From positions 25,637 to 89,636 of the forward strand of contig CAVTHI010000001.1 of NCBI GenBank assembly GCA_963734525.1: a stretch of 64,000 nt of DNA, in the 5' to 3' direction. A model generated the notes under the pieces. That model ran no database searches. It was given only the letters and a program-made list of their open reading frames with translations, and was not told the DNA's origin. How positions within the stretch are numbered: position 1 is the stretch's first letter; every line of letters starts with the position of its first letter. A program made the translations under genes and the position numbers. Of this stretch, positions 6,305 through 41,846 are shown piece after piece. The stretch is from an uncultured archaeon. Its GTDB lineage: Archaea > Micrarchaeota > Micrarchaeia > Anstonellales > Bilamarchaeaceae.

Positions 6305-6653
6305 TGCGGACCGAATCCAACGCGCCCATCTTCAGCAGGAGCTTGAGCGTCATCGCGAGGTCGAAATCGTGCATCGAGTATGCCTTGCCGCCGGAAAGCG
6401 AATCGATGCCCTCGAGGAGCACGACCTTGTCAAGGCCGACAGCCGAATCCAGGATGATGAGGTCGCGGCCTTCCTTCTCGAGGTTCTCGGCGGCGTCGAA
6501 TTCCTTGAATGAGACGAACGGGAACTTTTTCTGCAGCAGGGGCATCAGGCGCAGGGCTATGGAATCGGCATCCACGAGCGGGTTGCCGAAAACGAGGATT
6601 TTTTGGCGCGAACCGGCCCTTTTCGCATTTCCCCTTATGGTGTTCAGCCCCAT
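6183..6653 (-). CDS. hydrogenase maturation protease (HycI/HoxW family)
   Basis: KILVFGNPLVDADSIALRL..., LIILDSAVGL and HDFDLAMTL motifs typical of the endopeptidase family; adjacent to hydrogenase large subunit. Confidence 0.7.
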   Translation of the reverse strand: MGLNTIRGNAKRAGSRQKILVFGNPLVDADSIALRLMPLLQKKFPFVSFKEFDAAENLEKEGRDLIILDSAVGLDKVVLLEGIDSLSGGKAYSMHDFDLAMTLKLLLKMGALDSVRIIAVPSSMPPGKALSAVSRLLSSLLSGSASRSSCRGRRRG

Positions 6654-7504: not shown

Positions 7505-8452
7505 ATGGTCCTTTGCATAATCGCATTTTTCGTCTTCGCAGTGATGTCCGTGTTCTCGGCGAAATACAGGCCCCTGGCACGCGAGGGGCTGAGGTGCGTG
7601 TTCAGGACGGTCACATTCAAGCCGTGCGATACCGGGCTGGACGACCGCATCAAGGCCGAGATGGTCAGCGGGCTGCTGAAATTCTCGCCGGGCGGGGCGA
7701 AGCTCCTGAATAGGCATTTCACGCTGTTCTCGTGGATATTCGTCCTGCTGAGCGCCGGCAGCCTGATTTACAGCCTGTACGGCATATACAACTTCTATTA
7801 CTTCGGCAACTGCGACGGGCCGGCCAGCGTGAACGCCTGCGTCCTCAACCAGATTACCGGGGATTACGGGCGGTTCAGCGAGCCCAAGGACCTGGTGGCC
7901 CCCACGGCCCTGGACGGAATAACCGCCGGGATGGAGGGCGCGGACACCGTCATTGTGGAATTCGGATGCTTCACCTGCCCGTACACCGCGAAGGCCGAAC
8001 CCGCAGTCCAGCAGATACTGCGCAAGTACGACGATTCCGTTTATTACGTGTTCAAACCGTACCCGCTCCCGAACCACAACAACAGCTATGATGCCGCGCG
8101 CGCCGTGCTCTGCGCGAACAGGCAGGGCAAGCAATGGGAGCTGCGCGAGGAGATTTTCCGCCAGCAGGAGGTCTGCTCCACAGACGGCTCGATAGCCATC
8201 CGCCAGCTCGCGCAGGATTCGGGGCTTGACATGGCCGCGTTCGACTCGTGCTTCGACAACAACGAGACCGGGGCCGAGCTCGATAGGTACGTCCGGGAGG
8301 GCCAGGATGCGCGCATATACGCGACCCCGACGTTCTTCATAAACGGCAAGGCAATCGTAGGCCCGAAAACGCTCGAGCAGTTCGAATGCGCCATGAAGAA
8401 GGAGAAGGGCGTCTTCGAGGAGCTGGACTGCTGGCTGAAGGGGATGGGCTGA
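7505..8452 (+). CDS. membrane-anchored DsbA-like thiol:disulfide oxidoreductase
   Basis: N-terminal TM helices, thioredoxin-fold CFTCPYT (CxxC) after a beta-strand, ATPTFFINGK DsbA signature. Confidence 0.65.
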   Translation: MVLCIIAFFVFAVMSVFSAKYRPLAREGLRCVFRTVTFKPCDTGLDDRIKAEMVSGLLKFSPGGAKLLNRHFTLFSWIFVLLSAGSLIYSLYGIYNFYYFGNCDGPASVNACVLNQITGDYGRFSEPKDLVAPTALDGITAGMEGADTVIVEFGCFTCPYTAKAEPAVQQILRKYDDSVYYVFKPYPLPNHNNSYDAARAVLCANRQGKQWELREEIFRQQEVCSTDGSIAIRQLAQDSGLDMAAFDSCFDNNETGAELDRYVREGQDARIYATPTFFINGKAIVGPKTLEQFECAMKKEKGVFEELDCWLKGMG

Positions 8453-9639
8453 TGAAGGACGTGAGGAAGGATTTCCCGATACTTGCGAGGCACCCGCAGC
8501 TGACGTATCTCGACAGCGCGTGCACGTCGCTGAAGCCGCGCGAAGTGATTGATGCCGAATCCTCTTATTACGCCGAACTCGGCGCTTGCGCGGGGAGGAG
8601 CTCGCACAGGCTCGGCCGCGAGGCCAGCAGCGCGGTCGAAGGCGCGAGGGAGAAAATCGCGGCGTTCGTGGGCGCGAAGGCCGAGGAGGCCGTGTGGACG
8701 AGGAACGCGACCGAAGCGCTCAATATCGTCGCATACGGGCTCGATTACTCGAAAAGGAGGAAGGTCGTGACGAGCGCGCTCGAGCACCATGCGGTGCTCC
8801 TTCCATGGATGGACCTGCAGGAGCAGGGGAAAATCAGGCTGGAGATAGTCGGGTGCGACGAAAGCGGGCATGTCGGCGAGGAAAGGTGGGCAAATGCCAT
8901 AGACAGGGACACGGCGCTGGTCGTCACGAACAACGGGAACAACACCAGCGGCGTCAGCCAGTGCACGAAAAACCTCGCGAAGCTCGCCCACGACAACGGG
9001 GCGCTCCTGTGCATAGACGGGGCGCAGGGCATCCCGCACCGCAGGGTCGATTTCAGGAAGGAGAATTTCGATTTCCTGTGCTTTTCTGCCCACAAGATGC
9101 TCGGCCCGACCGGAATCGGGGCGCTCGTGATGAAAAAGGAGCACATGGCGAAGCTCCAGCCGCTCGTCCGGGGAGGGGGGACCGTGAAGACCGTGACCCT
9201 CGCCAAGGTCGAGCCGGTCAATGATTACACGAGATTCGAGGCTGGCGTCCAGCACTACAGCGGGATGCTGGGCTTTTCCGCGGCATGCGACTACCTGAGG
9301 GCCTACGGGATGGAAAACGTGGAGGCGCATGAGAAGGCGCTCGCATCGGCCATGCGCTCGGAGCTTGAAAACGCAGGCGTCCAGATTCATGGCCCGTTGG
9401 ATGAGCAAAGGAGCGCACTCTATTCGTTTAACATCAGGGGCGCCAAGGCGCACGACGTCGCGCTTATGCTGGACAAGGACGGCATCGCGGTCCGGAGCGG
9501 GTTCTTCTGCGCCCAGCCAGCCATGGAGGCCATGGGCGCAAAAGGCGGCGCGGTGAGGGCGAGCTGCTACATATACAATACTCCAGAGGACGTGAAAAGG
9601 CTCGGCGATGCCCTGAAAAAAATCGCGGCGCTCTACTGA
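8452..9639 (+). CDS. cysteine desulfurase / class V aminotransferase (SufS/CsdA-like)
   Basis: LTYLDSACTSLKP..., SAHKMLGPTGIG (PLP-Lys), C-terminal catalytic Cys; start ATG overlaps upstream stop (TGATG). Confidence 0.8.
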   Translation: MKDVRKDFPILARHPQLTYLDSACTSLKPREVIDAESSYYAELGACAGRSSHRLGREASSAVEGAREKIAAFVGAKAEEAVWTRNATEALNIVAYGLDYSKRRKVVTSALEHHAVLLPWMDLQEQGKIRLEIVGCDESGHVGEERWANAIDRDTALVVTNNGNNTSGVSQCTKNLAKLAHDNGALLCIDGAQGIPHRRVDFRKENFDFLCFSAHKMLGPTGIGALVMKKEHMAKLQPLVRGGGTVKTVTLAKVEPVNDYTRFEAGVQHYSGMLGFSAACDYLRAYGMENVEAHEKALASAMRSELENAGVQIHGPLDEQRSALYSFNIRGAKAHDVALMLDKDGIAVRSGFFCAQPAMEAMGAKGGAVRASCYIYNTPEDVKRLGDALKKIAALY

Positions 9640-16821: not shown

Positions 16822-16894
16822 GGGCCATGACCGTGAATCGAACACGGGCCTAGAGGGCCACAGCCTCTCACGCTACCATTACGCCATCATGGCC
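16822..16894 (-). tRNA. tRNA-His (anticodon GTG), with G-1
   Basis: cloverleaf folded by hand: 7-bp acceptor, extra 5' G-1 opposite C73, D-loop with GG, anticodon stem AGAGG/CCTCT, loop CTGTGGC, T-loop TTCGATT. Confidence 0.8.
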
Positions 16895-28570: not shown

Positions 28571-28779
28571 AAAATAGAAAATAGTGTTCCAGGTAAAATT
28601 AGTGGATTAGTAACTGGACTAGTGCTACTTAGGGGTGCAGAAAGGCCATTGAAGGGGGTATCTGACGAAATTCGGATTGACCTTCCACTGTGAACGGTTC
28701 CAGTAATAGAACTTTTTATGCACTGACGGGAGATATTAGAGGATTATTTGAAGCGTATTCTAATTCAAAGAAAATTTTA

Positions 28780-29238
28780 TTATGACCTAAACCCTTTTGG
28801 GCGGGATTTTTTACTTCTAATATCTTTCAAACTAATCCAACTTTCGGCTTCACAAAAAGTAATTTCAAATGCATCAAAGAAACCACTTCGTCCTAAAACT
28901 ATTTCATCGAGCTCGTTCAAAATACAACAATGGATATTTCGAAGTGTAACAGGATTGTGTATCAGAGGTATTTCCATCGTGATACTAGATTCAATACCGG
29001 ATACTAGTCCCCCGGCAGTATCAATCTTAGTTTCCTCACCTTGTTCGAGCTCAAGGATTTCTGCGATATCATTGTTGATATACATCCAAGTTGATCCTGA
29101 ATCGATTAACCCCATTGTTTCGAATTGGTTGCCTCCACTACCTTTCAAAATAACAGGTATACGAGGAGCTAGCGGTTTGGAATCGTCTTCGTGCTCTAAT
29201 GACAGTGATTTTCTATAATGAAACTTTTGCCCACTCAT
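28780..29238 (-). CDS. retropepsin-like aspartic peptidase (clan AA)
   Basis: LIDSGST D(S/T)G active-site motif and downstream EIVLGRSGFF hydrophobic-Gly motif; 152 aa; in low-GC islet. Confidence 0.6.
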   Translation of the reverse strand: MSGQKFHYRKSLSLEHEDDSKPLAPRIPVILKGSGGNQFETMGLIDSGSTWMYINNDIAEILELEQGEETKIDTAGGLVSGIESSITMEIPLIHNPVTLRNIHCCILNELDEIVLGRSGFFDAFEITFCEAESWISLKDIRSKKSRPKGFRS

Positions 29239-29242
29239 AGAA

Positions 29243-29449
29243 TCACAATATTTCCATGGAATTTTTTTTGGGGATTTTCGTTAACATGACACGTTTGTTT
29301 TTTGATTCCCCCAAAGCCTTTTTGTAGACGTCCGTGGCATTAGGCCCAGACGCTATAAGATTACCTTTGAAAATAGCTACCCACATACCCTGAAAATTAG
29401 ATAAATCCATTGATAGATAAGCATGATAATTCTTTGAGATGGACGTCAA
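29243..29449 (-). CDS. small hypothetical protein (68 aa) immediately upstream of retropepsin-like gene
   Basis: ORF 4 nt upstream of the protease gene, same strand, same low GC. Confidence 0.4.
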   Translation of the reverse strand: MTSISKNYHAYLSMDLSNFQGMWVAIFKGNLIASGPNATDVYKKALGESKNKRVMLTKIPKKNSMEIL

Positions 29450-29609
29450 AGCATATCACCTTAGTTGATAGTTTCCAGGTAGTATAATAAACTTATAGAC
29501 CTCGTTGTGGCGCATTATTGTGAATTATAGTTATAATTGGTGTCTACTAATATAAAAATCTGTCTTTTTTGGGTATACTTACCACCGAGGGATACTCAGG
29601 AAAAGAAAA

Positions 29610-29787
29610 TGCTCCTGCCGCGATTTGAACGCGGGTTCACAGAGTTCTTCCGCCTTTTAGGAAAAGGCGGCCCAAAACAGGTCTGTCTGCAAATCCTTCG
29701 AGGATTTGCATACAGATTGTTTTTGGGCGCTTTTTTCCAAAAAGCGCTGAGAGTCTGTTGTCCTTGACCGGGCTAGACTACAGAAGC
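29610..29787 (-). tRNA. tRNA-Glu (anticodon CTC) with 103-nt intron at canonical 37/38 position (exons ~29748-29787 and ~29610-29644)
   Basis: hand-folded: acceptor GCTTCTG/CAGGAGC, D-arm GTCT/GGAC, anticodon stem ACAGA/TCTGT split by intron, loop CTCTCA|C, T-arm CCGCG TTCAAAT CGCGG. Confidence 0.65.
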
Positions 29788-30134
29788 TAAGCTTAGCGAC
29801 TAATCATGACAACAAGGGTTTTAAAAGATTAAAGCAGGCCCCTTTTCCTCAGCTCCCCGGCGATTTTCGACGGCGCGGGCCTGCAGTTGCAGCTCCGCGC
29901 ATGCGCAAGGTGCCACTCGACCCTCTGCTCGAACGTCGCCCCCACCGGGATGCGGTTCCTATCGTGCCAAACTGAATTTATCTTTAACACCATTCCCCCA
30001 CCTTGGGAGAATTAGCAAAGGAAGATAGAAAAGGCTATCCGAGCCCCACAAGGCTCGCATGGATTATAACTTAGCCCCGATTTCTCCCCGGCTTCACGCC
30101 GAAGAGAGGGGCTAGGCGGGGATTGTCGCGCGTA

Positions 30135-30998
30135 TTACCTCTTCCTTCTTTTCTGGAGGCGAATCGAGGCTTTTGCGACCCTTGCGGCCCTTATTTTGCT
30201 TCGTGATTTGCGGACCGGCACGCGCGCCTTGCTCGCTTTCTTGATTGTTGAACGCGCGACGCGCTTTTTGGCGGGTTTCGCGGCTTTAGAGCGTTTTGAA
30301 ACGCGAACAGCCTTCTTCGGCGCTTTCCTGGCCGCCGGGACTGCCGGGGACAGGTGGGACATCTCGTCCCTGCCGTGCGAACGGACCGAGTGGATGAGGC
30401 TCCGGACTATGTGCTCGCCCTTCTGGGCGCTAAGCGGATGGCTGTCCGGGCTCTTGCGGGAATCGAAATGCCTTGATTGCTCCTGGAAACGCGGCGGCGG
30501 GAGCATTGCCGATTCCAGGCGCTCGCGGGCTCGCACCGGCATGTCGCGCATGTAGGCGAGGTCGTGGTTGGAAGAGACGGGCTCGATGACGCCGAGGCGC
30601 GGGGCCGCCCCGTCCCTTGACACCGGCCTGAAGTTCAATGCGAGCGCCGAGCGGTCCGACGGGTTCGGCATGAACGGCTTGGCTGAAACCTGCTTCGCGG
30701 GCGCGCGGATGTCCTGCACCGGGTTCCTGCGCATGGCAAGCCGCACAAGCTCGCCGCGCTCGCTTGGTGAAAATGACTGGGTTGCGTTCCGCATCAGTTC
30801 CGGCATGACGTATGCGGCCTCCGGCGTCCCGCCGTAGGTGCCGAGGAATTCAATCATCGCGCACTTGGCGGCCGCAGGCCCGCGCGTTCCGGCCCACTGC
30901 TTCAGTTCGGCCCAGACCTGCCTTGCGCCCTTGCCGCTTGAGGCGATTTCGCGCGCCTCGTTTCTCAAGTCTTCAGGAAAGAATCGCATGGATTGCAT
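30135..30998 (-). CDS. hypothetical protein with extremely basic K/R-rich C-terminal tail
   Basis: 287-aa ORF; last ~70 aa are KAPKKAVRVSKRSKAAKPAKKRVAR... low-complexity basic. Confidence 0.45.
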   Translation of the reverse strand: MQSMRFFPEDLRNEAREIASSGKGARQVWAELKQWAGTRGPAAAKCAMIEFLGTYGGTPEAAYVMPELMRNATQSFSPSERGELVRLAMRRNPVQDIRAPAKQVSAKPFMPNPSDRSALALNFRPVSRDGAAPRLGVIEPVSSNHDLAYMRDMPVRARERLESAMLPPPRFQEQSRHFDSRKSPDSHPLSAQKGEHIVRSLIHSVRSHGRDEMSHLSPAVPAARKAPKKAVRVSKRSKAAKPAKKRVARSTIKKASKARVPVRKSRSKIRAARVAKASIRLQKRRKR

Positions 30999-31061
30999 TC
31001 TCCGCTAAGCTTAATTTATGTATCTGTCCAAGGGACTATGCTTGTTTTGCATAATTGAGGT

Positions 31062-32541
31062 GTGACAATGGATTTCAACAGGGATGTCAAAAAGCCCAGT
31101 TTCAGGAAGATTGACGATTACGTCTGGGAGATAGGCACGGATTACAAGCCGGGCATGCTCGTCCCGGCGCGCATGTTCGCGAGCGAAGCGCTTCTCAACC
31201 ACATGGACAACACGGTCTTCGACCAGATAACCAACGTCGCGACGCTTCCGGGCATCGTGAAATACGCTTACTGCATGCCGGACGGGCACAGCGGCTACGG
31301 GTTCCCGATTGGCGGGGTCGCCGCGATGGACGTCAACGACAACGGCGTCATCTCGCCTGGCGGCATCGGGTTCGACATCAACTGCGGCATGAGGCTCGTC
31401 CGCACGGATTTGACAATCAAGGACGTCCAGCCGCGCCTGAAGGAGCTCGTGGATAAATTGTTCGGGAAGGTCCCGGCAGGCGTCGGCAGCAAGGGATTCG
31501 TCAGGCTGGATGCCGGCGCGTTCCGCAAGGTAATCGAGGAGGGCGCGCCTTGGTGCGTCGACAACGGCTACGGATGGAAGGACGACCTCGAAGCCACCGA
31601 GCTCGGGGGCAGGGACGATGGCGCGGACGAGAAGACAGTTAGCGACAAGGCGGTCGAAAGGGGGAAGGGCCAGATAGGCACGCTGGGGAGCGGCAACCAT
31701 TACCTTGAAATCCAGCATGTGAAGGAGGAGAACATATTCGACAAGGCGCTCGCAAAGAAATGGGGCATCTTCCCGGACCAGATAGTCATCATGTTCCATT
31801 GCGGCTCGCGCGGGTTCGGCCACCAGGTCGCGACGGACTACCTCAACCAGTTCCTCTCGGTCATGGAGAGCAAGTACAAGATCAAGATACTCGACAGGGA
31901 GCTTGCATGCGCCCCGTTCAATTCCCCTGAGGGGCAGGCGTATTTCAAGGCCATGAAGTGCGCGATGAACATGAGCTTCGCGAACAGGCAGACAATCGTC
32001 CACCGCGTGCGCGAGGTGTTCAGCGAAGTCTTCAAGACGGATGCGGAAAAGCTCGGGATGAAACAGGTTTACGACGTCTCGCACAACCGGGCCTCGGTGG
32101 AGAAGCACAGCGTGGACGGGACCATGAAGGAGCTGGTCGTCCACCGCAAGGGCGCGACCGCGGCATACGGCCCGGGCAGGGAAGAGCTTTCCCCAAGGTT
32201 CCGCGACGATGGCCAGCCGGTAATCATCGGCGGGAGCATGGAAACCGGCAGCTACCTGCTTTCAGGCGTCGCAAGCGGCGCGAGCACGTGGTTCACGACA
32301 GCCCACGGCTCAGGCAGGACGATGTCCAGGACGAGGGCCAAGCAGCTCTACCGCGGCGACCAACTGCAGAAGGACATGGAAAAGCGCGGGATTTACGTGA
32401 AGACGAGCTCGTATGCGCGGCCTTGCCGAAGAGGCAGGCGCGGCGTACAAGGACATCGACGAGGTCATCGAGACCACCCACCGGGCGGGGATATCGAACA
32501 AGGTGGCCAAGCTCGTGCCTATAGGGAATGTCAAGGGCTAG
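31062..32541 (+). CDS. rtcB: RNA-splicing ligase RtcB, with one +1 frameshift near 32417
   Basis: [39 protein letters not shown] motifs; alternate frame after tatgcgcgg restores canonical ...[42 protein letters not shown] end. Confidence 0.85.
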
Positions 32542-33502
32542 AGCTCGCGAAGTCGCCCCTCCCAGTGTTGATTGCGAGAGTGGTGGAGCGCTCCAAGACC
32601 GAGCCCCGGATTGCCGCGAATACCGTCGCGGCACTAGGCTCGCATGCGAGGCCGGCGCGATTCGCCACCTTGTAGGCCTCCAGGATTTCATCGTCGGTGA
32701 CATAGCACAGGCAAGCAGTCATTTTCCGGAAAAAGGAGAATGGTGTCACAAGTTTGTCCGCAACACGGCTTTTCTGGGAGACGCGAAAAAATGGGTTCCC
32801 GGCCACGGAGGCGCCCCGTATCCTGGCTATGGAATGCGGATGCTCCCACTGCTCATTTCCGAAAGGGTGGTGACACATGAAGTTGAAATAGAGCTCGCCG
32901 CTGCCGATGGGCATGAAAATCACATCCGCCGTCTCCCGGGCGACCTCTCCGACCAGCCGTACGTACAGGCCGGATTCGGGGGACTGGAAAGTGAGATATT
33001 CCGGGTTTATAAGCGAAACGTGGTCTTTTCCAAAGCGCCCGACCAAAAGCTCGACCTGCTTGCTCCGTGAGAGTATGATGTCAATCAGCTCAGACGGGGG
33101 AAAATAATGGGTTGAAAGATCGAGTTCAAGGACCTCGGACACCTCGGCAAGTTTCCCCTTGATTGCCGGTTCCAGCCCCCTATCCACGAAATTGACGACA
33201 CCGACAACCCGGTCGCCGGTATACCGGTTGTACATATCCGCGATTTTTCCAAGGCTATAGCCGGCGTTGCCATAGGTTATGGAATAGACGACCATGGCGT
33301 TGACAATAGCGCGCTCCGCGTGGAATAGCTCAAGCAGCCGCACGCTCCGGAAATCCTTCATGGTGCCCGTGACGGTGCGGCTACAATCCTTTACCCAGAG
33401 GTCCTCTGTTCTGCAGAAATCCGACAGCAGTGGCGGCGCCCGTATCAGCGGGGCCTTTGGCCTGAGCAGCCGGTGAGGGAATGACGACAACTGGGTAGGC
33501 AT
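32531..33502 (-). CDS. PLP-dependent enzyme, fold type II (threonine synthase / cysteine synthase / TrpB-like)
   Basis: TGTMKDFRS (PLP-Lys SFKDR-like), [22 protein letters not shown] glycine loop, GLACEPSAA. Confidence 0.6.
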
Positions 33503-33612
33503 ATGTAGATATGTGTTGATAAATGTTTAAAAATAAGTTTAATCGGCCGATTCCAGGAGTTGCACCGCCACCTGGGCGCCGGTTTATAACCAATTGGGCA
33601 GGTGTATCCACT

Positions 33613-34504
33613 ATGGACAGGGTTCCAGTCACAATTATCACAGGCTACCTTGGCGCCGGCAAAACGACGCTGCTCAGGCGGATAGCCGCCCAATCCAGCG
33701 AGTCCGGGATGAAGCTCGCCATCATCATGAACGAATTCGGCGAAATCGCCATAGACAGCAAGGTGGTCGAAGGCAAGGGCATCAGCATAGCCGAGCTTGC
33801 CGGCGGCTGCGTGTGCTGCTCGCTTTCCGGCGAATTCGGCCTAGCGGTGTCGGAACTGCTTGAAACGGCGAAACCGGAATGGATTGTGGTCGAGACGACC
33901 GGCGTCGCCGAGCCCGCCGCGCTCGCTTATGACATCCGGGAAAACATCCCCGAATATCCGGCTGGACTCGATTGTGACGGTAGTGGACGCAGATGCGATG
34001 GCGAGGTTCCCGAGCCTCGGGCACACCGGACGGGAGCAAATCGAGCTTGCGGACATCATAATCATCAACAAGGCGGACCTTGTCGCGGAGGACGCGCTCG
34101 ACCAAGTGAGGCAGGCGGTCAAGATAGCTGAATGGCCGCGCATCGATTGGAGGCTGAGCGGTGCAGGGTGGATACGCCTGCGCTTTTCGGAGTCATGCGC
34201 GATGCGCCCGCACCAAAGCACAAGACGCACAAGGTTTCTTTCGGGCATTTCGATTATTCATCCGACAAGACAGCTGGACCATGCTTCGCTCATCCGCGTC
34301 CTTGAAACGCTCCCGTCCGGGATTTACCGCGCCAAGGGGTTCGCCAGGACGGAAAAGGGCGGCTTCCTCGTGAATTACGTGGCGGGAAGGTTCGAGTTCG
34401 AGGAGCATGCGTGCAGCAGGACCGGGCTGGTTTTCATAGGCAAGGATGCAGGCAGGTTCGAGGAGGGCATCGTCAGGTCGCTCGAATCCGCATCCGCGAC
34501 ATGA
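33613..34504 (+). CDS. CobW/COG0523-family G3E GTPase (metallochaperone-like), with +1 frameshift at CCCC run ~33950
   Basis: GYLGAGKTTLL P-loop, GCVCC metal motif, NKADL; second half in ORF 33860..34504 with GISSF-like C-terminal motif. Confidence 0.75.
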
Positions 34505-34577
34505 TTCGGCCTGCACTGCCTGCACTATAAGGATATAATGATGGGCGAATAACAGGATAACGATGAATTGAAGTGGT

Positions 34578-35012
34578 ATGATGCCTTACAGATTCCTTGA
34601 GGGCCTGACGATGGCTGATATCGCATTCGAGGCGACAGGCGCGACGCTCGAGGAGATGTTCGCCAGCGCCGCCGATGCGGTCACCAACACACAGCTTCAG
34701 GACCTAAGCGAGATAAAGCCGGATATCAGCAAGAAATTCATGCTGAAGGCCGGCGAACCCGAAAGGCTGCTCCACGACTTCCTCCAGGAGCTCATTTTCC
34801 TCAAGGATGCCGAACTGCTCCTTTTCCGCGAATACGATTTGAAGATTTCCAGGGCTGAGGATGGCCTGGTCCTGGCGGCGAGCTTGAAAGGCCAGCAGAT
34901 AGACCAGAAAAAGCACCACCTGCTTGTCGATGTGAAGGCGGTCAGCTGGCACAAGTTCAAGGTCGAAAAAACCGCCCATGGATGGAAAGCGGTAGTCATC
35001 ATAGACGTGTGA
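34578..35012 (+). CDS. archease (RtcB cofactor)
   Basis: N-terminal TMADIAFEATGATLEEMFASAA matching archease HTADI..leelf motif; 144 aa. Confidence 0.7.
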   Translation: MMPYRFLEGLTMADIAFEATGATLEEMFASAADAVTNTQLQDLSEIKPDISKKFMLKAGEPERLLHDFLQELIFLKDAELLLFREYDLKISRAEDGLVLAASLKGQQIDQKKHHLLVDVKAVSWHKFKVEKTAHGWKAVVIIDV

Positions 35013-35053
35013 TTGCACGGGCGCATGATGGCATCCGCAAACTTTGGACCTGC

Positions 35054-35965
35054 TCAGGGAACGAAAACCGTGCCCTTTTTGCCTTCGAGGGCGTCGCGGA
35101 TATCCGTGATGGAGCAGATGATTGCCTTCCCCCCGCCATTTTCCAGGAACCGCAGCGCCGCCTCGACTTTCGGCTTCATGCTGCCCTCGGCGAAATGATT
35201 TTCCGCGAGGTGCTTCCGCGCATCCCGCGCATTTACCCGGCCGAGCGCCCTCTGGGACTTTTTGCCGAAATCCAGGTAGGCGGCATCGATTGATGTCACA
35301 AAAACGAGCAGGTCCGCCTTGATGTTCGATGCGAGGAGCGATGTCGCGGAATCCTTGTCTATCACGGCTTCGAGCCCCTCCCCGCCTTTCGTTATCGGTA
35401 TCCCCCCGCCCCCGACCCCTATCACGACGAACCCTTTTTCGAGCAAGGCGCTTATCGCGTCATGCTCGCGGATTTTGAGGGGCTCCGGCGATGCCACGAA
35501 AAGGCGGTATCCCCGCCCGGCATCCATCTTGTATGCGGTCCCGGGTTGCGGGTTCATGTTTTTTGGCGGCGCATCGAAGAAAGGGCCGATGGGCTTCGAT
35601 GGATTCACAAACGCCTTGTCTTCCTTGTCTACGACGACACGCGTAATCAGGGTGGCCGAATGCAGGCCGGTCATCGAGACCGCGGTCGAGAGGAAATAGC
35701 CTATCTGGCCCTGCGTCATGGCATCCAGCACGTCAAGCGGCATGGGCGCGACCTTGTCCGTCGCCTGCTGCTGGATGAGCAGGTTGCCGACCTGCGGCCC
35801 GTTCCCGTGCGTGAGCACCACCTGGTTCTGCCTGAGTATGGGCTCAAGGCTCGAGATTGCGGATTTGGCGGCAAGGAGCTGCTCTGCCGCGGTCCCCCTG
35901 TCCCCCTTCCTAAGCAGGGCGTTGCCCCCGAGCGCTATGACGATACGCATGAGGCGCTTTTGCAT
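35054..35965 (-). CDS. arcC: carbamate kinase
   Basis: MRIVIALGGNAL N-terminus, THGNGPQVG, VIGVGGGGIP motifs; 303 aa. Confidence 0.85.
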   Translation of the reverse strand: MQKRLMRIVIALGGNALLRKGDRGTAAEQLLAAKSAISSLEPILRQNQVVLTHGNGPQVGNLLIQQQATDKVAPMPLDVLDAMTQGQIGYFLSTAVSMTGLHSATLITRVVVDKEDKAFVNPSKPIGPFFDAPPKNMNPQPGTAYKMDAGRGYRLFVASPEPLKIREHDAISALLEKGFVVIGVGGGGIPITKGGEGLEAVIDKDSATSLLASNIKADLLVFVTSIDAAYLDFGKKSQRALGRVNARDARKHLAENHFAEGSMKPKVEAALRFLENGGGKAIICSITDIRDALEGKKGTVFVP

Positions 35966-36000
35966 GATAGAATAAAAATATCATAGGGTATAACCAACCC

Positions 36001-37315
36001 ATGAAAAGGAACGTGCTCATTCTCGGCGCCGCAGGCAGGGATTTCCATAATTTCAACATGTTTTTCCGGGACAACCCGGAATACAGCGTCGCGGGCTTCA
36101 CCGCCACCCAGATTCCGAATATAGCGGACCGCAGATATCCGCCGGAGCTATCGGGGAAGCTATATCCCAAGGGGATACCGATTTTCGACGAAAGCAGGAT
36201 GGAGGAGCTCATCGTGAAGCACGCAATCGACGAGGTGTATTTCTCGTATTCCGACGTCGCGCAACGAGTATGTCATGCACCTCGCTTCCAGGGCGCAGGC
36301 AAAGGGGGCGAGCTTCGTCCTTCTCGGCCCGCGCGAGACCATGCTGAAAAGCTCGAAGCGCGTCATCGCGGTCACCGCGGTGAGGACGGGGGCCGGCAAA
36401 AGCGCGCTTTCCCGCACGATTACGAAAATCCTCAAGGCGAAGGGCGTCAAATTCGTGGTTATCCGCCACCCGATGCCGTATGGCGACCTCGTGAAGCAGC
36501 GCGTCCAGCGGTTCGCCACCATGGAGGACATGGAAAAGCAGAACTGCACGTTCGAGGAGAGGGAGGAATACGAGCCGCATGTGCGGAACGGCGTCATCGT
36601 GTACGCAGGAATCGACTATGGCGAAATCCTGAGGCAGGCCGAAAAGGAGGCTGACGTAATCGTTTGGGACGGGGGCAACAACGACATGTCGTTCATCAAG
36701 CCGGACCTGCACATAACGATTGCGGATTCGCTGCGGCCCGGCCACGAGCTTTGGTATTACCCGGGCGAGACGAATTTCCGCATGGCGGACATCATAGTCA
36801 TAAACAAGGTGAGCGAGAACCCGATGGACGTCCGGCGCATCCTCAAGAACTGCGAGAAGGCGAACCCGAAGGCGAAAGTCATCGAGACCGACATGGAATT
36901 GACGCCGTCCAGGGAATTCGAGCTTTACGGGAAGAAAACGATAGTCATCGAGGACGGCCCGACTGTGACGCACGGAGGGATGAAATTCGGCGCCGGGTTC
37001 GAATACGCCGCGAGGAACGGGGCGGACATCATAGACCCGAGGCCTTTTGCGGTCGGGAGCATCAAGGAGATATATTCCAAATTCGACAGCATCGGGCTCG
37101 TCGTGCCCTCCATGGGGTATTACGAGAAGCAGATGAAGGACCTGGCCGAGACGATAAACCGGAGCAAGGCCGAAATCGTGGTTTCGGGAACCCCGATAAA
37201 CATCACCAAGCTGCTTAATGTCAACATACCGGTCCTGCACATCGATTTCAACATCAAGGAGCGCACCGGAAGCCTGGATTCGATAGTCGCGAAGTTCCTC
37301 AAGGGAAAGGACTGA
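36001..37315 (+). CDS. P-loop protein of the cyclic 2,3-diphosphoglycerate synthetase / DUF1611-like family, with +1 frameshift ~36261
   Basis: N-terminal VLILGAAGRDFHNFN Rossmann-like domain, then P-loop AVTAVRTGAGKSALS in ORF 36275..37315; junction restores to ...SDVANEYVMHLA... by removing one base after gcg. Confidence 0.55.
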
Positions 37316-37354
37316 AGGCGCAAACGCGAGGGAGCTGCGAGCTGGCTGGGAATA

Positions 37355-37852
37355 TCAGCGGTTCTCCCCCTTGTATTGCCCCTCGTACAGCGTGTTCGCA
37401 TCCTCGGCGAGCCGGATGAAAATCATCTGGCCTATTTTCGCGTTCTTCTTGAACACCGCCCCGTGCTCGTTTCGCACGACAAGCAAGGCCTCGCTCCTGC
37501 CCTCATATCCAGGGTCCCACACGGCGCATTCGAGGGTGACGCCGCAGCGCAGGAGCGACGAGCGCGGGAGGCAGAGCCCGGCGACGTTCTTCGGAATCCT
37601 CACGTATTCGTTGAATATCACCTTGTATGCGCCCATCTTGAGGTGCACGCGGTCGGCTTCCGCGCCGGAATCGAACTGAACGGGCTCGACCGGGCTGATT
37701 TTCCTCTCCTTGTTGTCGAAGTCAATCAGGCCGGCCTCCTTGAACCTGTAGACCTCCTTCAGGGTGATGTCTATCCCGCAGGGCTGGTACTGGCTGCTGT
37801 GCAGGCCCTCGAATATCTTCGCCGCCTCAAGATGCTGCTTCGGGAGAATCAT
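37355..37852 (-). CDS. dCTP deaminase / dUTPase-superfamily protein
   Basis: VWDPGYEGRSEALLV motif; start moved to MILPKQ... because the 38-aa upstream extension is proline-rich and abuts the converging gene. Confidence 0.65.
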   Translation of the reverse strand: MILPKQHLEAAKIFEGLHSSQYQPCGIDITLKEVYRFKEAGLIDFDNKERKISPVEPVQFDSGAEADRVHLKMGAYKVIFNEYVRIPKNVAGLCLPRSSLLRCGVTLECAVWDPGYEGRSEALLVVRNEHGAVFKKNAKIGQMIFIRLAEDANTLYEGQYKGENR

Positions 37853-37902
37853 GGGGCTAATACGCAAGGCAGGTTTATATTTTTGGGGGGAGAGACGAGG
37901 GT

Positions 37903-39357
37903 ATGGCCGCCTATAGGATGTATATCGGGGGGGAATGGGTGGGGGCTGACTCTTATTTCGATTCAATCGACCCCGCGACTGAAAAGGCCATAGCCAGGTT
38001 CCCGCTCGGGGACCAGAGGCACGTGGGGATGGCTGTCGATGCGGCGAAGGACGCGTTCGGGAAATGGTCCAGGATGCCGCCGCCGAAAAGGGGCCTGATT
38101 CTCCAGAGGGCGGCTGAAATCCTCAGGATTGAAAAGGAGAGGCTCGGAAAGCTCGTGGCGACCGAGATGGGGAAGGTGCTGCCGGAAGCCCTCGGCGACG
38201 TGCAGGAGGCAATCGACACATTCGAGTATTTCGCAGGGGAAGGGAGGCGGCTTTACGGCCACACGACGACGAGCGAGCTGAAGGACAAGTTCTGCATGAC
38301 AATCCGGAGGCCGGTCGGCGTCGTCGGGCTGATTACCCCGTGGAACTTCCCGACCGCGATACCTGCATGGAAGCTCGCCCCCGCGCTGGTCTGCGGGAAC
38401 ACCGTCGTGTTCAAGCCAAGCTCGGATACGCCGCTTTGCGCATATGAAATGGTGAAGGTGCTGGTGAAGGCGGGCGTGCCTCCAGGCGTCGTCAATTTCG
38501 TGACCGGGCCGGCATCAACCGTAGGCGAGGCGATTGTTAAGCATCCGGATATATCCGGCCTCTCATTCACAGGCTCGAAGGCAACGGGCGAATGGATAAC
38601 GCGGAACGCCGGCCTCAAGAAGGTCGGCCTGGAACTCGGCGGGAAGAATCCCATAATAGTGATGGACGACGCCAGGCTGGATTTGGCGGTGGACGGGATA
38701 CTCTGGGGCGCGTTCGGGACTACCGGGCAACGCTGCACCGCGACGAGCCGGGTCCTTGCGCACAGGAAAATCAAGCCGAAGATGCTGTCCGCGCTTGTCA
38801 CGCGGGCGAGGATGCTTCGGCTCGGCCCGGGCATCCAGAAGACGAGCGATGTCGGCCCCCTGATAAACAAGGCGGCGCAGGAGAAGGCGGGCAAGTACGT
38901 GGGTATCGGAATAAGCGAGGGCGCGAAACTGCTCTGCGGCGGAAACAAGCCCGCGGGCAGGGGATTCTTCTTCAAGCCGACCATTTTCGACGATGTTCGG
39001 CCGGACATGAGGATAGCGAATGAGGAGATTTTCGGCCCGGTCCTCTCGGTCATAGGCTTCGATACGCTGGATGAGGCGATTGGCATCGCGAATTCGGTCG
39101 AATACGGCCTCAGCTCGTCCATCTACACCGCGGACATCGGGCGCGCGTTCAGGGCGATAGAGGGGATTGAAGCCGGGATAACATATATCAATTCGAGCAC
39201 GATTGGCGCGGAGGTGCATCTCCCGTTCGGCGGCGTGAAGGGCACGGGGCACACGAGGGAGGCGGGCATCCTGGGCTTGGATGAGTTCTCGAACACGAAG
39301 ACGGTCTACATAGACTACTCCGGAAAGCTCCAGAAGGCGCAGATTGACGTTGATTGA
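37903..39357 (+). CDS. NAD(P)+-dependent aldehyde dehydrogenase
   Basis: 484 aa; catalytic Cys (GQRCTA), ELGGKNP Glu motif, FTGS. Confidence 0.85.
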   Translation: MAAYRMYIGGEWVGADSYFDSIDPATEKAIARFPLGDQRHVGMAVDAAKDAFGKWSRMPPPKRGLILQRAAEILRIEKERLGKLVATEMGKVLPEALGDVQEAIDTFEYFAGEGRRLYGHTTTSELKDKFCMTIRRPVGVVGLITPWNFPTAIPAWKLAPALVCGNTVVFKPSSDTPLCAYEMVKVLVKAGVPPGVVNFVTGPASTVGEAIVKHPDISGLSFTGSKATGEWITRNAGLKKVGLELGGKNPIIVMDDARLDLAVDGILWGAFGTTGQRCTATSRVLAHRKIKPKMLSALVTRARMLRLGPGIQKTSDVGPLINKAAQEKAGKYVGIGISEGAKLLCGGNKPAGRGFFFKPTIFDDVRPDMRIANEEIFGPVLSVIGFDTLDEAIGIANSVEYGLSSSIYTADIGRAFRAIEGIEAGITYINSSTIGAEVHLPFGGVKGTGHTREAGILGLDEFSNTKTVYIDYSGKLQKAQIDVD

Positions 39358-39366
39358 GGTGTCCAT

Positions 39367-39897
39367 ATGAAAGAAGCGGCCAAGCTTTTCGTCATGCAGC
39401 TCCAGTACGGGGGCATACCTGAAGGCATATACCATTACCTGCAGGAGCATGAAAAGAGGATGCTCATAGAGAAGGACGGCCGGTTCTTCCTGAGCGATGC
39501 GGAAAGGAAGCGGATAAAGGTCGTGCTGACTGGGGGCGTGTTCGACGTGCTCCACATAGGGCATATCGTGACGCTCACCGAGGCGAAAAAGCACGGCGAC
39601 GTGCTCATAGTGGCCATCGCGCGCAACGAGCACATCAGGAAGAAGGGCAGGGAGCCTATCCACGACGTGGAATACCGGAAAATCATGGTCGAATGCCTCA
39701 AGCCGGTGGACATGGCCATCGAGGGGTTCGAGGACCAGAAGAGGATGCTCGCGCTGGTGAAGCCGGACGTCATCGTCTACGGGTACGACCAGAAGGATTC
39801 CGTCCGGCCCGCGGGCGTCGAAATCGTGAAGCTCGAGCGCAGGATCGACGACTCGAAGTTCAAGACAGGGAAGATTCTCGAGCAGCTCGGCCTCTGA
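39367..39897 (+). CDS. cytidylyltransferase-like nucleotidyltransferase (RibL-type FAD synthase-like)
   Basis: VVLTGGVFDVLHIGH (T/H)xGH motif; 176 aa. Confidence 0.6.
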   Translation: MKEAAKLFVMQLQYGGIPEGIYHYLQEHEKRMLIEKDGRFFLSDAERKRIKVVLTGGVFDVLHIGHIVTLTEAKKHGDVLIVAIARNEHIRKKGREPIHDVEYRKIMVECLKPVDMAIEGFEDQKRMLALVKPDVIVYGYDQKDSVRPAGVEIVKLERRIDDSKFKTGKILEQLGL

Positions 39898-39939
39898 GGA
39901 AGGGATTAGGGTAAATTTATAAATTTGCCATGAGTTTTC

Positions 39940-40332
39940 ATGGGCATGATTCTGGGTCAGTTCAAACCCATGGCGATGAAGCCGCCGGGAGAGGAGGAGA
40001 AGGAGCCTGAGCAGACGCAGAAGGGCACTCAGGACCGCTCGAGCAATTCGGACGATTTCCTCAAGACTCCGGAGGCCAAAGAGTTCATCGGCAGGATGTC
40101 GGAAAAGCTGAAGCAGGGCAATTTCCCGGCAACCAGAAGGGGAATCACAGACATCATGGGGACATTGCACCGCAATTCCAACCTCACCGACAAGGAAGTC
40201 ATGAAAGAGACGGAGAGGATTTTGCTGCGCCTCGGCGGCCTGGACGGCTTCAGCGGGGTGCTTTCCGGCCTGAAAGCGAAGTCCGAAGGCCTGATCAAAG
40301 GGCTGAAAGCGGTCTTCGGCGGCGGGAAATAA
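39940..40332 (+). CDS. hypothetical protein (130 aa)
   Basis: ORF, acidic N-terminus; no domain recognised. Confidence 0.35.
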   Translation: MGMILGQFKPMAMKPPGEEEKEPEQTQKGTQDRSSNSDDFLKTPEAKEFIGRMSEKLKQGNFPATRRGITDIMGTLHRNSNLTDKEVMKETERILLRLGGLDGFSGVLSGLKAKSEGLIKGLKAVFGGGK

Positions 40333-40336
40333 CGCT

Positions 40337-40471
40337 CATGAACGTTGACGAAAGCAGGGCAAGGGAGCTCATACGCGAGGGCACGTGCCCGGTCTGCGGC
40401 ACCAAGCTGAAGCACATCGAAGGATGCGTGGAATGCATCATGTGCGGATGGAGCCAGTGCGGCGAGGCATG
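40337..40471 (+). CDS. small zinc-ribbon protein (44 aa, CPVCG...CVECIMCGWSQCG)
   Basis: short ORF below the 60-aa cutoff of the ORF track; two CxxC pairs. Confidence 0.35.
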
Positions 40472-40566
40472 ACGCCCGCCATCACGGATTTGCGCCTTGG
40501 ATAGAACCTGCGCCGCCGGCATCCGGCGAGGGGCGCCTTTGGCGGTTTTAACGCAAATATACTATT

Positions 40567-41649
40567 TTGGCAACTTTTAAAAACTCGATGACGCTAATCC
40601 GCATCATGCATGCCCGCAGCGACAGGTACCTGGGATACATGGCAAGCGCGGCAGACCGCGGCAGGTTCAGCAACGCCATGAAGGCGGCAGCGGCCCGCGG
40701 CGCCATCATCACGACCCACGACGTGCCTGACTGCGACGGCCTCGGCGCGGCATACGCACTGCAGAGGATACTGTTCAGGAAAGGCGCCATATCGGACATC
40801 GTCACAGGGCCGCATATCCACCTCACCGACCCGCTTGTCGATGCGCTCGGGATATGCACCAAACGCTGGGGCGAGATTCCCCCATCGGACCCGCGGCCGA
40901 TAATAGTCGTGGACACGAACACCCCGGCCCTCCTGAGCGGCATGAACTGCCGCGAGAACCAGCTCCTGATGGTGATAGACCACCACCAGAACGGCCATCT
41001 GGCACTGAAGCCCCTGAACATGATAGAGAACCAGTCTGCGATATCGGCGAGCGAGATAGTCGCGTCCCTCATCGACAGGAGGCTGATAGACCGCCAGAGC
41101 GCCCTCGCGCTGGCCGTCGGGATAGCGGGCGACAGCGAACGCCTGAGCGACGCGGAAATCGGGACGCTGCACATCTTCGAGTCCCTGCTCCGGATTTCCG
41201 GCGCGTCCAAGAAGGCCGTCGACGAGCTGGCCTACCCGGACCTGCCGCCTGGAATGGTCGCGGCCATCCTCGAGGAGATGAAGCACGTCGAAAGCGAGCT
41301 TTACGGAAACAGGGTCATCGCGGTCGCGGCGAGCACGCTCGAAAACCCGGCCATACTCGCGAACGAAATCCGCAACATGAACGCCGCGGTCGTCGCGGTG
41401 CTGAAAGAGCAGGAGGGCGGGTGGCACAAGGCCTCGTTCCGCGTAAGGTTCCGAGAAGCGAGGTCGGGCATACACGCCAATGACATCGCAAGGCGAACGA
41501 GCGAGGCCTGCGGCATGCCGGAGAATATGAGGGGCGGGGGGCACATAGACAAGGCCGGCGCCATGATACACGCCTGTTACCGCGAGATTTCTGACGCGGT
41601 GTTCGCAGCGGCCAGGGAGGCCATAGACGGGGCGGCGGGAAAGCAGTAG
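40567..41649 (+). CDS. DHH-family phosphoesterase (NrnA-like) with DHHA1 domain
   Basis: MVIDHHQ DHH motif, acidic D motifs (HDVPDCDG, VVDTN), C-terminal GGGH. Confidence 0.7.
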   Translation: MATFKNSMTLIRIMHARSDRYLGYMASAADRGRFSNAMKAAAARGAIITTHDVPDCDGLGAAYALQRILFRKGAISDIVTGPHIHLTDPLVDALGICTKRWGEIPPSDPRPIIVVDTNTPALLSGMNCRENQLLMVIDHHQNGHLALKPLNMIENQSAISASEIVASLIDRRLIDRQSALALAVGIAGDSERLSDAEIGTLHIFESLLRISGASKKAVDELAYPDLPPGMVAAILEEMKHVESELYGNRVIAVAASTLENPAILANEIRNMNAAVVAVLKEQEGGWHKASFRVRFREARSGIHANDIARRTSEACGMPENMRGGGHIDKAGAMIHACYREISDAVFAAAREAIDGAAGKQ

Positions 41650-41692
41650 AGTTTTTAAACACGATTCGCCAATCAAGGTTCTATCTTCAATT

Positions 41693-41846
41693 GCCTCGGT
41701 AGCTCAGCCGGTAGAGCGGCTGACTGTTAAGGCTTTTTGACTTCTGTCTTTCTCCGGGCAAAAACCCTGGAAAAAACCCTGAGGATAAAGGAGGTCAATT
41801 CGCCAAAGCAATCAGCAGGCCGGAGGTTCGAATCCTCCCCGGGGCG
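41693..41846 (+). tRNA. tRNA-Asn (anticodon GTT) with 81-nt intron at canonical 37/38 position (~41730-41810)
   Basis: hand-folded: acceptor GCCTCGG/CCGGGGC (one GU), D-arm GCTC AGCCGGTA GAGC, anticodon stem GCTGA/TCAGC interrupted, loop CTGTTA|A, T-arm GGAGG TTCGAAT CCTCC. Confidence 0.75.

What the first reader, a model, noticed from the sequence alone, without database searches (positions are those of the whole stretch)
29610..41846. Two tRNAs with long canonical-position introns (tRNA-Glu 103 nt, tRNA-Asn 81 nt) in the same 12-kb stretch as RtcB and archease
Both introns sit between nucleotides 37 and 38 and are far longer than the typical 15-25-nt archaeal tRNA intron. The tRNA-Glu intron contains three internal hairpins. 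The splicing ligase RtcB (31062..32541) and its activator archease (34578..35012) are encoded between the two tRNAs. The grouping may be coincidental, but such long introns are lineage markers and may hide box C/D guide RNAs or other functional RNAs.
Basis: seen in the sequence. Interest (0 to 1): 0.55.

Follow-up and report, generated by a model that had tools for sequence, protein, structure and literature searches.

The report
Two long-intron tRNA genes, Micrarchaeota
Two genuine archaeal tRNA genes (Glu and Asn) are each split by an unusually long but ordinary-type splicing intron; the introns carry no guide RNA, and they belong to two sequence families that have been swapped between tRNA genes in closely related genomes.

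Summary
tRNA-Glu(CUC) lies on the minus strand at 29610..29787 with a 103-nt intron. tRNA-Asn(GUU) lies on the plus strand at 41693..41846 with an 81-nt intron. Both introns sit at 37/38. RtcB and archease lie between the two genes.

The host is a DPANN archaeon (Micrarchaeota), a group already known for heavily disrupted tRNA genes.

Both introns fit the canonical 3-4-3 bulge-helix-bulge register, each with one mismatch in the central helix. Relatives have 4 of 4 pairs. No box C was found in any of 20 related introns, so the box C/D idea is rejected.

The introns are poor lineage markers. Three metagenomic contigs 87-92% identical in flanking DNA encode the identical 75-nt mature tRNA-Glu but carry different introns (51 nt or 76 nt). 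The window's tRNA-Asn intron is 83% identical over 46 nt to tRNA-Glu introns of other genomes. This resembles the intron transposition described in Thermoproteales.

tRNA-Glu to RtcB linkage is conserved synteny in relatives, with no sign of functional coupling.

Verdict: real, but a new member of a known kind. Interest is moderate to low.

Side lead: a conserved rtcB, COG0523 GTPase, archease gene cassette.

The parts
29610..29787 (-). tRNA-Glu(CUC) gene with intron. No CCA is encoded; the discriminator is A.
   Evidence: ARAGORN -i. The spliced product is identical to L090/L102/L103. Cloverleaf covariation.
29748..29787 (-). tRNA-Glu 5' exon (40 nt, through A37)
   Evidence: Intronless relatives define the junction.
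29645..29747 (-). tRNA-Glu intron, 103 nt, family A (expanded). It contains hairpin 1 (29727..29747), hairpin 2 (29672..29726), hairpin 3 (29650..29670) and the H-strand/bulge tail AAGAA (29645..29649).
29610..29644 (-). tRNA-Glu 3' exon (35 nt, from C38)
   Evidence: It is 100% identical to the L004 3' exon.
41693..41846 (+). tRNA-Asn(GUU) gene with intron
   Evidence: Rfam RF00005, 56.5 bits. ARAGORN -i.
41693..41729 (+). tRNA-Asn 5' exon (37 nt, through A37)
41730..41810 (+). tRNA-Asn intron, 81 nt, family B. It starts AGGCUUUUUGAC and contains SCAAAAACCCUGGAAAAA.
41811..41846 (+). tRNA-Asn 3' exon (36 nt, from A38)
31068..32541 (+). RtcB RNA ligase gene. A 1-nt insertion (C) near 32418 shifts the frame relative to L103 and L001.
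   Evidence: Pfam PF01139, 497.5 bits. Frames. Alignment.
33613..34504 (+). CobW-like COG0523 GTPase gene between rtcB and archease. A 1-nt insertion near 33952 splits it into two ORFs.
   Evidence: Pfam cobW and CobW_C. Alignment. Conserved cassette.
34578..35012 (+). Archease gene
   Evidence: Pfam PF01951, 122.1 bits
29819..29826 (-). A/T box TTTTAAAA, 32-39 nt upstream of tRNA-Glu nt 1. Candidate archaeal TATA box (inference).
   Evidence: Read from the sequence
41652..41659 (+). A/T box TTTTTAAA, 34-41 nt upstream of tRNA-Asn nt 1. Candidate archaeal TATA box (inference).
   Evidence: Read from the sequence

Best explanation
These are two functional, single-intron tRNA genes of a Micrarchaeota (DPANN) archaeon: tRNA-Glu(CUC) and tRNA-Asn(GUU).

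How splicing works. In the precursor, nt 32-35 of the anticodon loop pair with intron positions n-5..n-2 to form the 4-bp central helix. Nt 36, 37 and the first intron base form one 3-nt bulge. The last two intron bases and nt 38 form the other. This is the canonical bulge-helix-bulge (BHB) substrate at 37/38.

Inferred steps. The archaeal splicing endonuclease cuts in both bulges; in Micrarchaeota the broad-specificity epsilon2 type is known from ARMAN-2. RtcB, helped by archease, joins the exons and probably circularises the intron.

What the introns are. They carry no box C/D guide. They belong to two sequence families.
- Family A has a U4-5/A4-6 hairpin with covarying stem ends, then CAAAAAC, then a second copy of the 3' arm.
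- Family B starts AGGCUUUUUGAC, followed by a hairpin and SCAAAAACCCUGGAAAAA.

Each family occurs in both tRNA-Glu and tRNA-Asn genes of related genomes, and the families have been exchanged, expanded or lost between close relatives. The length therefore reflects turnover of semi-mobile BHB introns, not an embedded gene. The 103-nt Glu intron is a 51-nt-type family A intron with an added 55-nt hairpin and a duplicated arm.

The nearby RtcB and archease genes are the general ligation machinery, kept near tRNA-Glu by inherited gene order.
For: Genes and exons.

Junction at 37/38: intronless relatives. The 3-4-3 register holds in 15 Glu and 5 Asn introns, and the intron 3' end tracks the host loop: AGGG or GGAG for CUCU, ACAG for CUGU.

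Stable folds: -54.6 kcal/mol (z -7.4) for Glu and -36.0 kcal/mol (z -4.8) for Asn.

Host taxon: RtcB is 94% identical to MAG DeMMO3_33 and about 80% to Candidatus Micrarchaeota MAGs.

Micrarchaeum/ARMAN-2: 56% of its tRNA genes are disrupted, and its epsilon2 EndA cleaves both strict and relaxed BHB motifs (PMC3239211).

No guide RNA.

Families and exchange:
- Window Asn intron against the L082 Glu intron: 38/46 identical, local score 57 against 15.5 +/- 2.6 for shuffles, 0 of 1000 shuffles as high.
- L012 Asn against L012 Glu: score 44, 0 of 1000.
- Window, L102/L103 and L090 have identical exons and near-identical upstream DNA but unalignable introns.

Hairpin 1 stem ends covary.

RtcB and archease.
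Against: - Each window intron has one mismatch in the central helix (C34xA in Glu, G34xA in Asn). The unconstrained minimum-energy folds prefer a register shifted by one.
- The Rfam tRNA model does not report the Glu gene.
- RtcB is frameshifted in this assembly, and no splicing endonuclease gene was found among about 50 window ORFs scanned.
- There are no expression or splicing data.
- Exchange between genes is inferred from a small sample: 20 introns. The taxonomy of most metagenomic contigs is unknown.
Confidence: 0.85

Rival explanations
1. The long introns host a functional small RNA that explains their length and the conserved motifs. This could be a box C/D or H/ACA guide, as in euryarchaeal tRNA-Trp, or another structured or circular RNA.
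For: - The first 46-57 nt of family B are conserved at the sequence level across Asn and Glu genes of different genomes.
- The U5/A5 hairpin module is kept while the stem ends covary.
- The folds are unusually stable.
- CUGA is present in the two family B Asn introns at the same position.
Against: - No C box (RUGAUGA, up to 1 mismatch) in any of 20 introns.
- No Rfam family hit in the introns at E<=10.
- Introns of different families, different lengths, or no intron at all occupy the same site of the same tRNA in relatives. That argues against an indispensable embedded function.
- No copies occur outside tRNA genes in the DNA held.
Confidence: 0.1
2. The tRNA genes are grouped with RtcB and archease for a functional reason, for example co-regulation of the ligase with its intron-bearing substrates.
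For: tRNA-Glu(CUC) lies 1-4.5 kb from rtcB in L002, L003, L004, L009, L082, L101, L102 and L103, as it does in the window. L004 keeps the whole order tRNA-Glu, rtcB ... tRNA-Asn.
Against: - tRNA-Glu is transcribed divergently from rtcB, with another gene between them.
- In L012 the arrangement differs.
- rtcB with archease, often with a COG0523 GTPase between them, is equally conserved in bacteria that have no tRNA introns. The cassette therefore does not depend on intron-bearing tRNA neighbours.
- The linkage is seen only within one clade, as expected for inherited gene order.
Confidence: 0.07
3. One or both genes are pseudogenes disrupted by the insertion of a small mobile element, and are not spliced.
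For: - Each window intron has a mismatch in the central helix.
- The neighbourhood shows decay-like features: frameshifts in rtcB and cobW, and a low-GC island next to tRNA-Glu.
Against: - The exons are intact and identical to those of relatives.
- The intron 3' ends stay complementary to the host anticodon loop in 20 of 20 cases, which only selection for splicing explains.
- Promoter-like A/T boxes are present at the expected distance.
- The epsilon2 endonuclease tolerates relaxed motifs (PMC3239211).
- The two frameshifts are single-base insertions, consistent with assembly errors.
Confidence: 0.05

Closest known systems
Canonical archaeal BHB tRNA introns at 37/38 (Marck & Grosjean 2003; reviewed in PMC4090602)
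   Same: Position 37/38, the 3-4-3 bulge-helix-bulge register, a protein-only splicing pathway (EndA plus RtcB), and no ORF.
   Different: The lengths are 81 and 103 nt, against medians of 12-25 nt, though within the reported range of 11-129 nt. Each has one mismatch in the central helix. The intron body is an elaborate rod or multi-hairpin.
Disrupted tRNA genes of Candidatus Micrarchaeum acidiphilum ARMAN-2 with the epsilon2 splicing endonuclease (PMC3239211, PMC3488258)
   Same: Same phylum-level lineage. Introns are frequent, both strict and relaxed BHB motifs are accepted, and relatives here also carry extra D-loop and T-loop introns (L009, L012, L002, L082).
   Different: The ARMAN-2 substrates tested in vitro have introns of 25 nt (37/38) and 13 nt (59/60). 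The intron sequence families and the exchange between Glu and Asn genes seen here are not described in that paper. The endonuclease type of this organism was not determined.
[quoted passage not shown] 2010, as summarised in PMC4090602)
   Same: Very similar intron sequences occur in tRNA genes of different isoacceptors, and intron content differs between close relatives.
   Different: This is a different phylum (DPANN). Both hosts use the canonical site, whereas Thermoproteales use many non-canonical sites. Only the 5' two-thirds of the intron is shared and the 3' end is host-specific. The sample here is small.
Euryarchaeal tRNA-Trp intron with nested box C/D sRNA (Omer 2000; Clouet d'Orval 2001; cited in PMC4090602)
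   Same: A long intron (about 65-105 nt) at 37/38 that is excised, and in some species circularised.
   Different: There are no C/D or C'/D' boxes and no K-turn signature. The host tRNAs are Glu and Asn, not Trp.

Membership tests
Archaeal BHB tRNA intron (canonical position) | Removing the insert restores a complete tRNA cloverleaf | tested here: met
   Glu: the 75-nt product is identical to that of relatives, and 99.7% of cells are paired with 4 compensatory pairs. Asn: Rfam 56.5 bits over model positions 1-71.
Archaeal BHB tRNA intron (canonical position) | The insert lies between nt 37 and 38 | tested here: met
   Intronless relatives give the loop CUCUCAC. The Rfam alignment places the Asn insert after A37. 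The boundary can slide by one A without changing the product.
Archaeal BHB tRNA intron (canonical position) | 3-nt bulge, 4-bp helix, 3-nt bulge at the exon-intron junctions, flanked by helices | tested here: inconclusive
   The register fits. However, the central helix has 3/4 pairs in both window introns (C34xA, G34xA). It has 4/4 pairs in 12 of 15 Glu and 4 of 5 Asn introns examined. The inner helix h' is 10 bp in Glu and 3 bp in Asn. Unconstrained folds shift the register by one.
Archaeal BHB tRNA intron (canonical position) | Cleavage by the splicing endonuclease and ligation by RtcB | not testable with these tools
   RtcB and archease are encoded in the window. No EndA was found among about 50 ORFs scanned. 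There are no RNA data.
Box C/D sRNA-bearing intron (tRNA-Trp type) | Box C (RUGAUGA) and box D (CUGA) near the ends, plus internal C'/D' boxes | tested here: not met
   No box C with up to 1 mismatch in 20 introns. CUGA is present only in some. No snoRNA or sRNA Rfam hit at E<=10.
Transposed (mobile) archaeal tRNA introns, Thermoproteales type | Closely similar intron sequences in tRNA genes for different amino acids | tested here: met
   Window Asn against L082/L104/L090 Glu: 38/46 identical, score 53-57 against 15.5 +/- 2.6. L012 Asn against L012 Glu: score 44. In each case 0 of 1000 shuffles scored as high.
Transposed (mobile) archaeal tRNA introns, Thermoproteales type | Intron content of one tRNA gene differs between close relatives | tested here: met
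   Window (103 nt, family A), L102/L103 (51 nt, family A) and L090 (76 nt, family B). Their exons are identical and their flanks 87-92% identical.
Transposed (mobile) archaeal tRNA introns, Thermoproteales type | Demonstrated movement (donor and recipient in one genome, mechanism) | not testable with these tools
The mechanism is also unknown in Thermoproteales (PMC4090602).
Group I / group II intron | Ribozyme core structure | tested here: not met
   No Rfam hit. Introns of 81-103 nt are too short.

The most novel reading that the evidence does not exclude
Micrarchaeota harbour families of semi-mobile BHB introns built around a conserved U5/A5 hairpin module. These introns move between the anticodon loops of different tRNA genes (Glu and Asn) and between genomes, replace one another at the same site, and grow by internal hairpin insertion and arm duplication. 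If so, natural populations of these organisms would be a tractable system for the unsolved question of how protein-spliced tRNA introns are gained.

The conserved T5 tract just inside the intron might also modulate transcription. This idea rests on my own knowledge of archaeal oligo-T termination and was not tested.
Probability: 0.4. Interest if true: 0.55.

Novelty: new member of a known kind. Interest (0 to 1): 0.36.

Why it matters
As it stands, this is correct annotation of two tRNA genes that standard tools mishandle.

The wider point concerns intron turnover. Contigs about 90% identical in flanking DNA carry three different introns in an otherwise identical tRNA gene, and one intron family is shared between Glu and Asn genes. 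That is direct sequence evidence for rapid intron turnover outside Thermoproteales. It bears on the old question of how archaeal and eukaryotic-type tRNA introns arise and spread.

It also means intron length and sequence should not be used as lineage markers in this group.

Tried and rejected
- ARAGORN default mode finds only tRNA-His.
- Rfam at gathering and E-value thresholds on the window and on 28-43 kb finds no RNA family in the introns and does not report tRNA-Glu. It also misses the L004 tRNA-Glu with a 51-nt intron, so the miss comes from the model or its filters, not from the 103-nt length.
- The 'Pyl(cta)' call by ARAGORN is rejected using intronless orthologs and the BHB register.
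- The box C/D scan was negative.
- The look-up of encoding contigs with the archease protein: not on record.
- A viral-contig scan for the family B core CAAAAACCCTGGAAAAA gave 10 hits, all without tRNA context. These are chance matches.
- blastn-short of all introns against the window and all loci found no copies outside tRNA genes.
- A search for a duplicated tRNA-Glu 3' end, which would mark an attachment site, found none in the window.
- Pfam on the L102 island 3' of tRNA-Glu found no integrase.
- Pfam on about 50 window ORFs found no splicing endonuclease.
- I did not build covariance models of the intron modules. The conserved core is short and A/U-rich, and only about 1.4 Mb of held sequence could have been searched.
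- Window Glu against window Asn introns: no significant similarity (score 18, 295 of 1000 shuffles as high). They belong to different families.


Full report
**1. Observation**

ARAGORN in default mode reports only tRNA-His, at c[16822..16893]. With introns allowed it adds two genes. One is at c[29610,29787] with a 103-nt insert in the anticodon loop. The other is at [41692,41847] with an 81-nt insert.

The Rfam tRNA model independently reports the second gene (41693..41846; 56.5 bits, E 1.6e-9; model positions 1-71, with an 82-nt insertion after A37). Its anticodon is GUU, so it is tRNA-Asn.

The first gene is not reported by Rfam at any threshold. ARAGORN labels it 'Pyl(cta)'. That label is an artefact of a sliding boundary. 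The sequence reads ACAGA-CUCUCA|GCGC...GAAGAA|C-UCUGU, and placing the intron at 37/38 gives the loop CUCUCAC with anticodon CUC.

**2. Identity of the Glu gene**

I scanned metagenome contigs with the 5'-exon pattern, which returned 28 loci. Fifteen of them are intronless and read ...GACTCTCACTCYG.... This is exactly the mature loop predicted for splicing at 37/38.

The window's spliced 75-nt product is identical to those of L090, L102 and L103. On 14 distinct spliced or intronless sequences the cloverleaf is 99.7% paired. Four pairs show compensatory changes, and slid controls reach 37-51%. ARAGORN calls all these orthologs Glu(ctc).

Rfam also misses the L004 ortholog, whose intron is only 51 nt. 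The miss therefore says nothing against the gene.

**3. Host**

RtcB, corrected for the frameshift, is 94% identical to that of 'MAG: archaeon isolate DeMMO3_33'. It is 77-82% identical to those of several Candidatus Micrarchaeota MAGs. The window also encodes topoisomerase VI B and other housekeeping genes.

The window is therefore chromosomal DNA of a DPANN archaeon of the Micrarchaeota. ARMAN-2, of the same lineage, is known to have 56% of its tRNA genes disrupted. It also has an epsilon2 splicing endonuclease that cleaves both strict and relaxed BHB motifs (PMC3239211).

**4. Junction structure**

I tested the canonical 3-4-3 register on 15 Glu and 5 Asn introns. In this register nt 32-35 pair with intron positions n-5..n-2. 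The bulges are 36, 37|i1 and n-1, n|38.

- The central helix has 4/4 pairs in 12 of 15 Glu and 4 of 5 Asn introns.
- The intron 3' end tracks the host loop: AGGG or GGAG opposite CUCU in Glu, and ACAG opposite CUGU in Asn.
- The window's two introns each have one mismatch, opposite nt 34 (C34xA and G34xA).
- The inner helix h' is 10 bp in the Glu intron and 3 bp in the Asn intron.

Unconstrained folding prefers a register shifted by one, because bulges cost more than internal loops in the energy model. The folds are very stable: -54.6 kcal/mol (z -7.4) for Glu and -36.0 kcal/mol (z -4.8) for Asn.

The Glu intron's three hairpins can be drawn at -51.4 kcal/mol. The minimum-energy form is a rod in which the 5' arm pairs with the 3' arm.

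**5. No hidden guide RNA**

None of the 20 introns contains RUGAUGA, even allowing one mismatch. CUGA occurs in only some of them. Rfam at E<=10 across 28-43 kb gives only the tRNA and three chance hits.

**6.

*Family A.* It occurs in tRNA-Glu of the window, L002, L003, L004, L009, L012, L091, L102 and L103, and in tRNA-Asn of L012. It is built as follows:
- a hairpin X-U4-5-GG-A4-6-X';
- then (AU)CAAAAAC and a variable stretch;
- then a second A4-X' copy that can pair with the 5' arm to make h'.

The stem ends covary (GAAAC/GUUUC, CGAAC/GUUUG, UCCAAC/GUUGGA, GCGC/GCGC, CGCGCC/GGCGCG).

The window's 103-nt intron and L003's 135-nt intron are the 51-nt type with large internal insertions.

*Family B.* It starts AGGCUUUUUGAC, followed by a hairpin with compensatory changes, then SCAAAAACCCUGGAAAAA. 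It occurs in tRNA-Asn of the window and L004, and in tRNA-Glu of L082, L090 and L104.

*Similarity across tRNA genes*:
- The window Asn intron is 38/46 identical to the L082 Glu intron. The local score is 57, against 15.5 +/- 2.6 for dinucleotide shuffles, and 0 of 1000 shuffles score as high.
- That is closer than its match to the orthologous L004 Asn intron (score 44).

*Turnover among close relatives.* In flanking DNA, L102 and L103 are 89-92% identical to the window and L090 is 87% identical. The mature tRNA-Glu is identical in all four. Their introns, however, are 51 nt (family A), 76 nt (family B) and 103 nt (family A expanded), and they cannot be aligned.

*Interpretation.* This matches the pattern called intron transposition in Thermoproteales (Fujishima 2010, as summarised in PMC4090602). 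Full-text searches found no description of it for Micrarchaeota or DPANN. Movement itself is inferred, not shown. The mechanism is unknown.

**7. RtcB, archease and linkage**

Pfam confirms RtcB and archease.

rtcB carries an extra C near 32418 relative to L103 and L001, which shifts the frame before the conserved C-terminus. The cobW-like gene carries an extra G near 33952. Two single-base insertions in conserved genes within 1.6 kb suggest assembly errors rather than decay, but this is not proven.

tRNA-Glu lies 1-4.5 kb from rtcB in L002, L003, L004, L009, L082, L101, L102 and L103. L004 keeps the whole order through to tRNA-Asn. This is inherited synteny within one clade. The tRNA is transcribed divergently from rtcB with another gene between them, and L012 differs. 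I see no evidence for functional coupling.

**8. Length in context**

A 2014 review gives archaeal intron lengths of 11-129 nt, with medians of 12-25 nt (PMC4090602). The 81- and 103-nt introns are therefore in the upper tail but not outside the range. The 135-nt intron in L003 exceeds that older maximum.

**9. Verdict**

The introns are ordinary in kind (BHB at the canonical position), in a lineage known for disrupted tRNA genes, and they carry no guide RNA. The added value is the evidence for intron families shared between tRNA genes and for fast turnover. This makes it a new member of a known phenomenon.

Noticed in passing
window 31068..35012; loci L001-L080: The gene order rtcB, CobW-like COG0523 GTPase, archease (all on one strand) occurs in 43 of the 80 loci fetched by RtcB similarity. 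These include DPANN archaea, cyanobacteria, Verrucomicrobia and Acidobacteria. Six or seven more loci show rtcB followed by cobW with a flank too short to see archease, and 18 have rtcB directly followed by archease. The GTPase has a Walker A motif and a CXCC motif (GGCVCCS). NCBIfam has no equivalog for this subgroup. Full-text searches linking RtcB to COG0523, CobW or a metallochaperone found nothing relevant. It may be a metal-loading factor for RtcB.
   Followed up: partly
window ~32418 and ~33952: Single-base insertions relative to close relatives shift the frame of rtcB (an extra C) and of the cobW-like gene (an extra G after CCCC). These are probably assembly indels, so single-base details elsewhere in the window should be read with care.
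   Followed up: partly
window 32540..33621: A 1082-bp insertion between rtcB and the cobW-like gene is absent from L001 and L103. It carries a minus-strand ORF (32531..33502) with a partial match to PLP-dependent enzymes (PALP; profile positions 144-295 only).
   Followed up: partly
window 28578..29609: A low-GC stretch lies immediately 3' of tRNA-Glu (45.5% GC in 28001-30000, against about 58% for the window). It holds a weak aspartic-protease-like ORF (28780..29238, minus strand). It is not homologous to the 3.1 kb found at the same place in L102, although the DNA on both sides is 90-91% identical. No integrase and no duplicated tRNA end were found. It is a variable island next to a tRNA gene.
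   Followed up: partly
L009 c[6356..6512], L012 (near the locus end, minus strand), L002 (~5608, minus strand), L082 (~8300..8470, minus strand): tRNA-Glu(CUC) orthologs in these relatives carry additional non-canonical introns besides the 37/38 intron. The extra intron is in the D-loop in L009, L012 and L002, and in the T-loop in L082.
   Followed up: no
L003 c[6451..6660]: This tRNA-Glu(CUC) has a 135-nt family A intron. That is longer than the 129-nt maximum quoted for archaeal tRNA introns in the 2014 review.
   Followed up: no
window 29739..29743 (minus strand) and 41734..41738 (plus strand): Both introns have a T5 run 5-9 nt inside the intron, conserved in both families. Oligo-T is an archaeal RNA polymerase termination signal (my own knowledge), so its conservation inside tRNA genes is unexplained.
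   Followed up: no
L100 333..485: This tRNA-Glu(CUC) has a 78-nt intron of a third type. It is built of short direct repeats (GTCTTGA, GGAACAGGAAAC) and is unrelated to families A and B.
   Followed up: no
window 16822..16893 (minus strand): An intronless tRNA-His(GUG) (60.8 bits). It is the only other tRNA gene detected in the window.
   Followed up: yes
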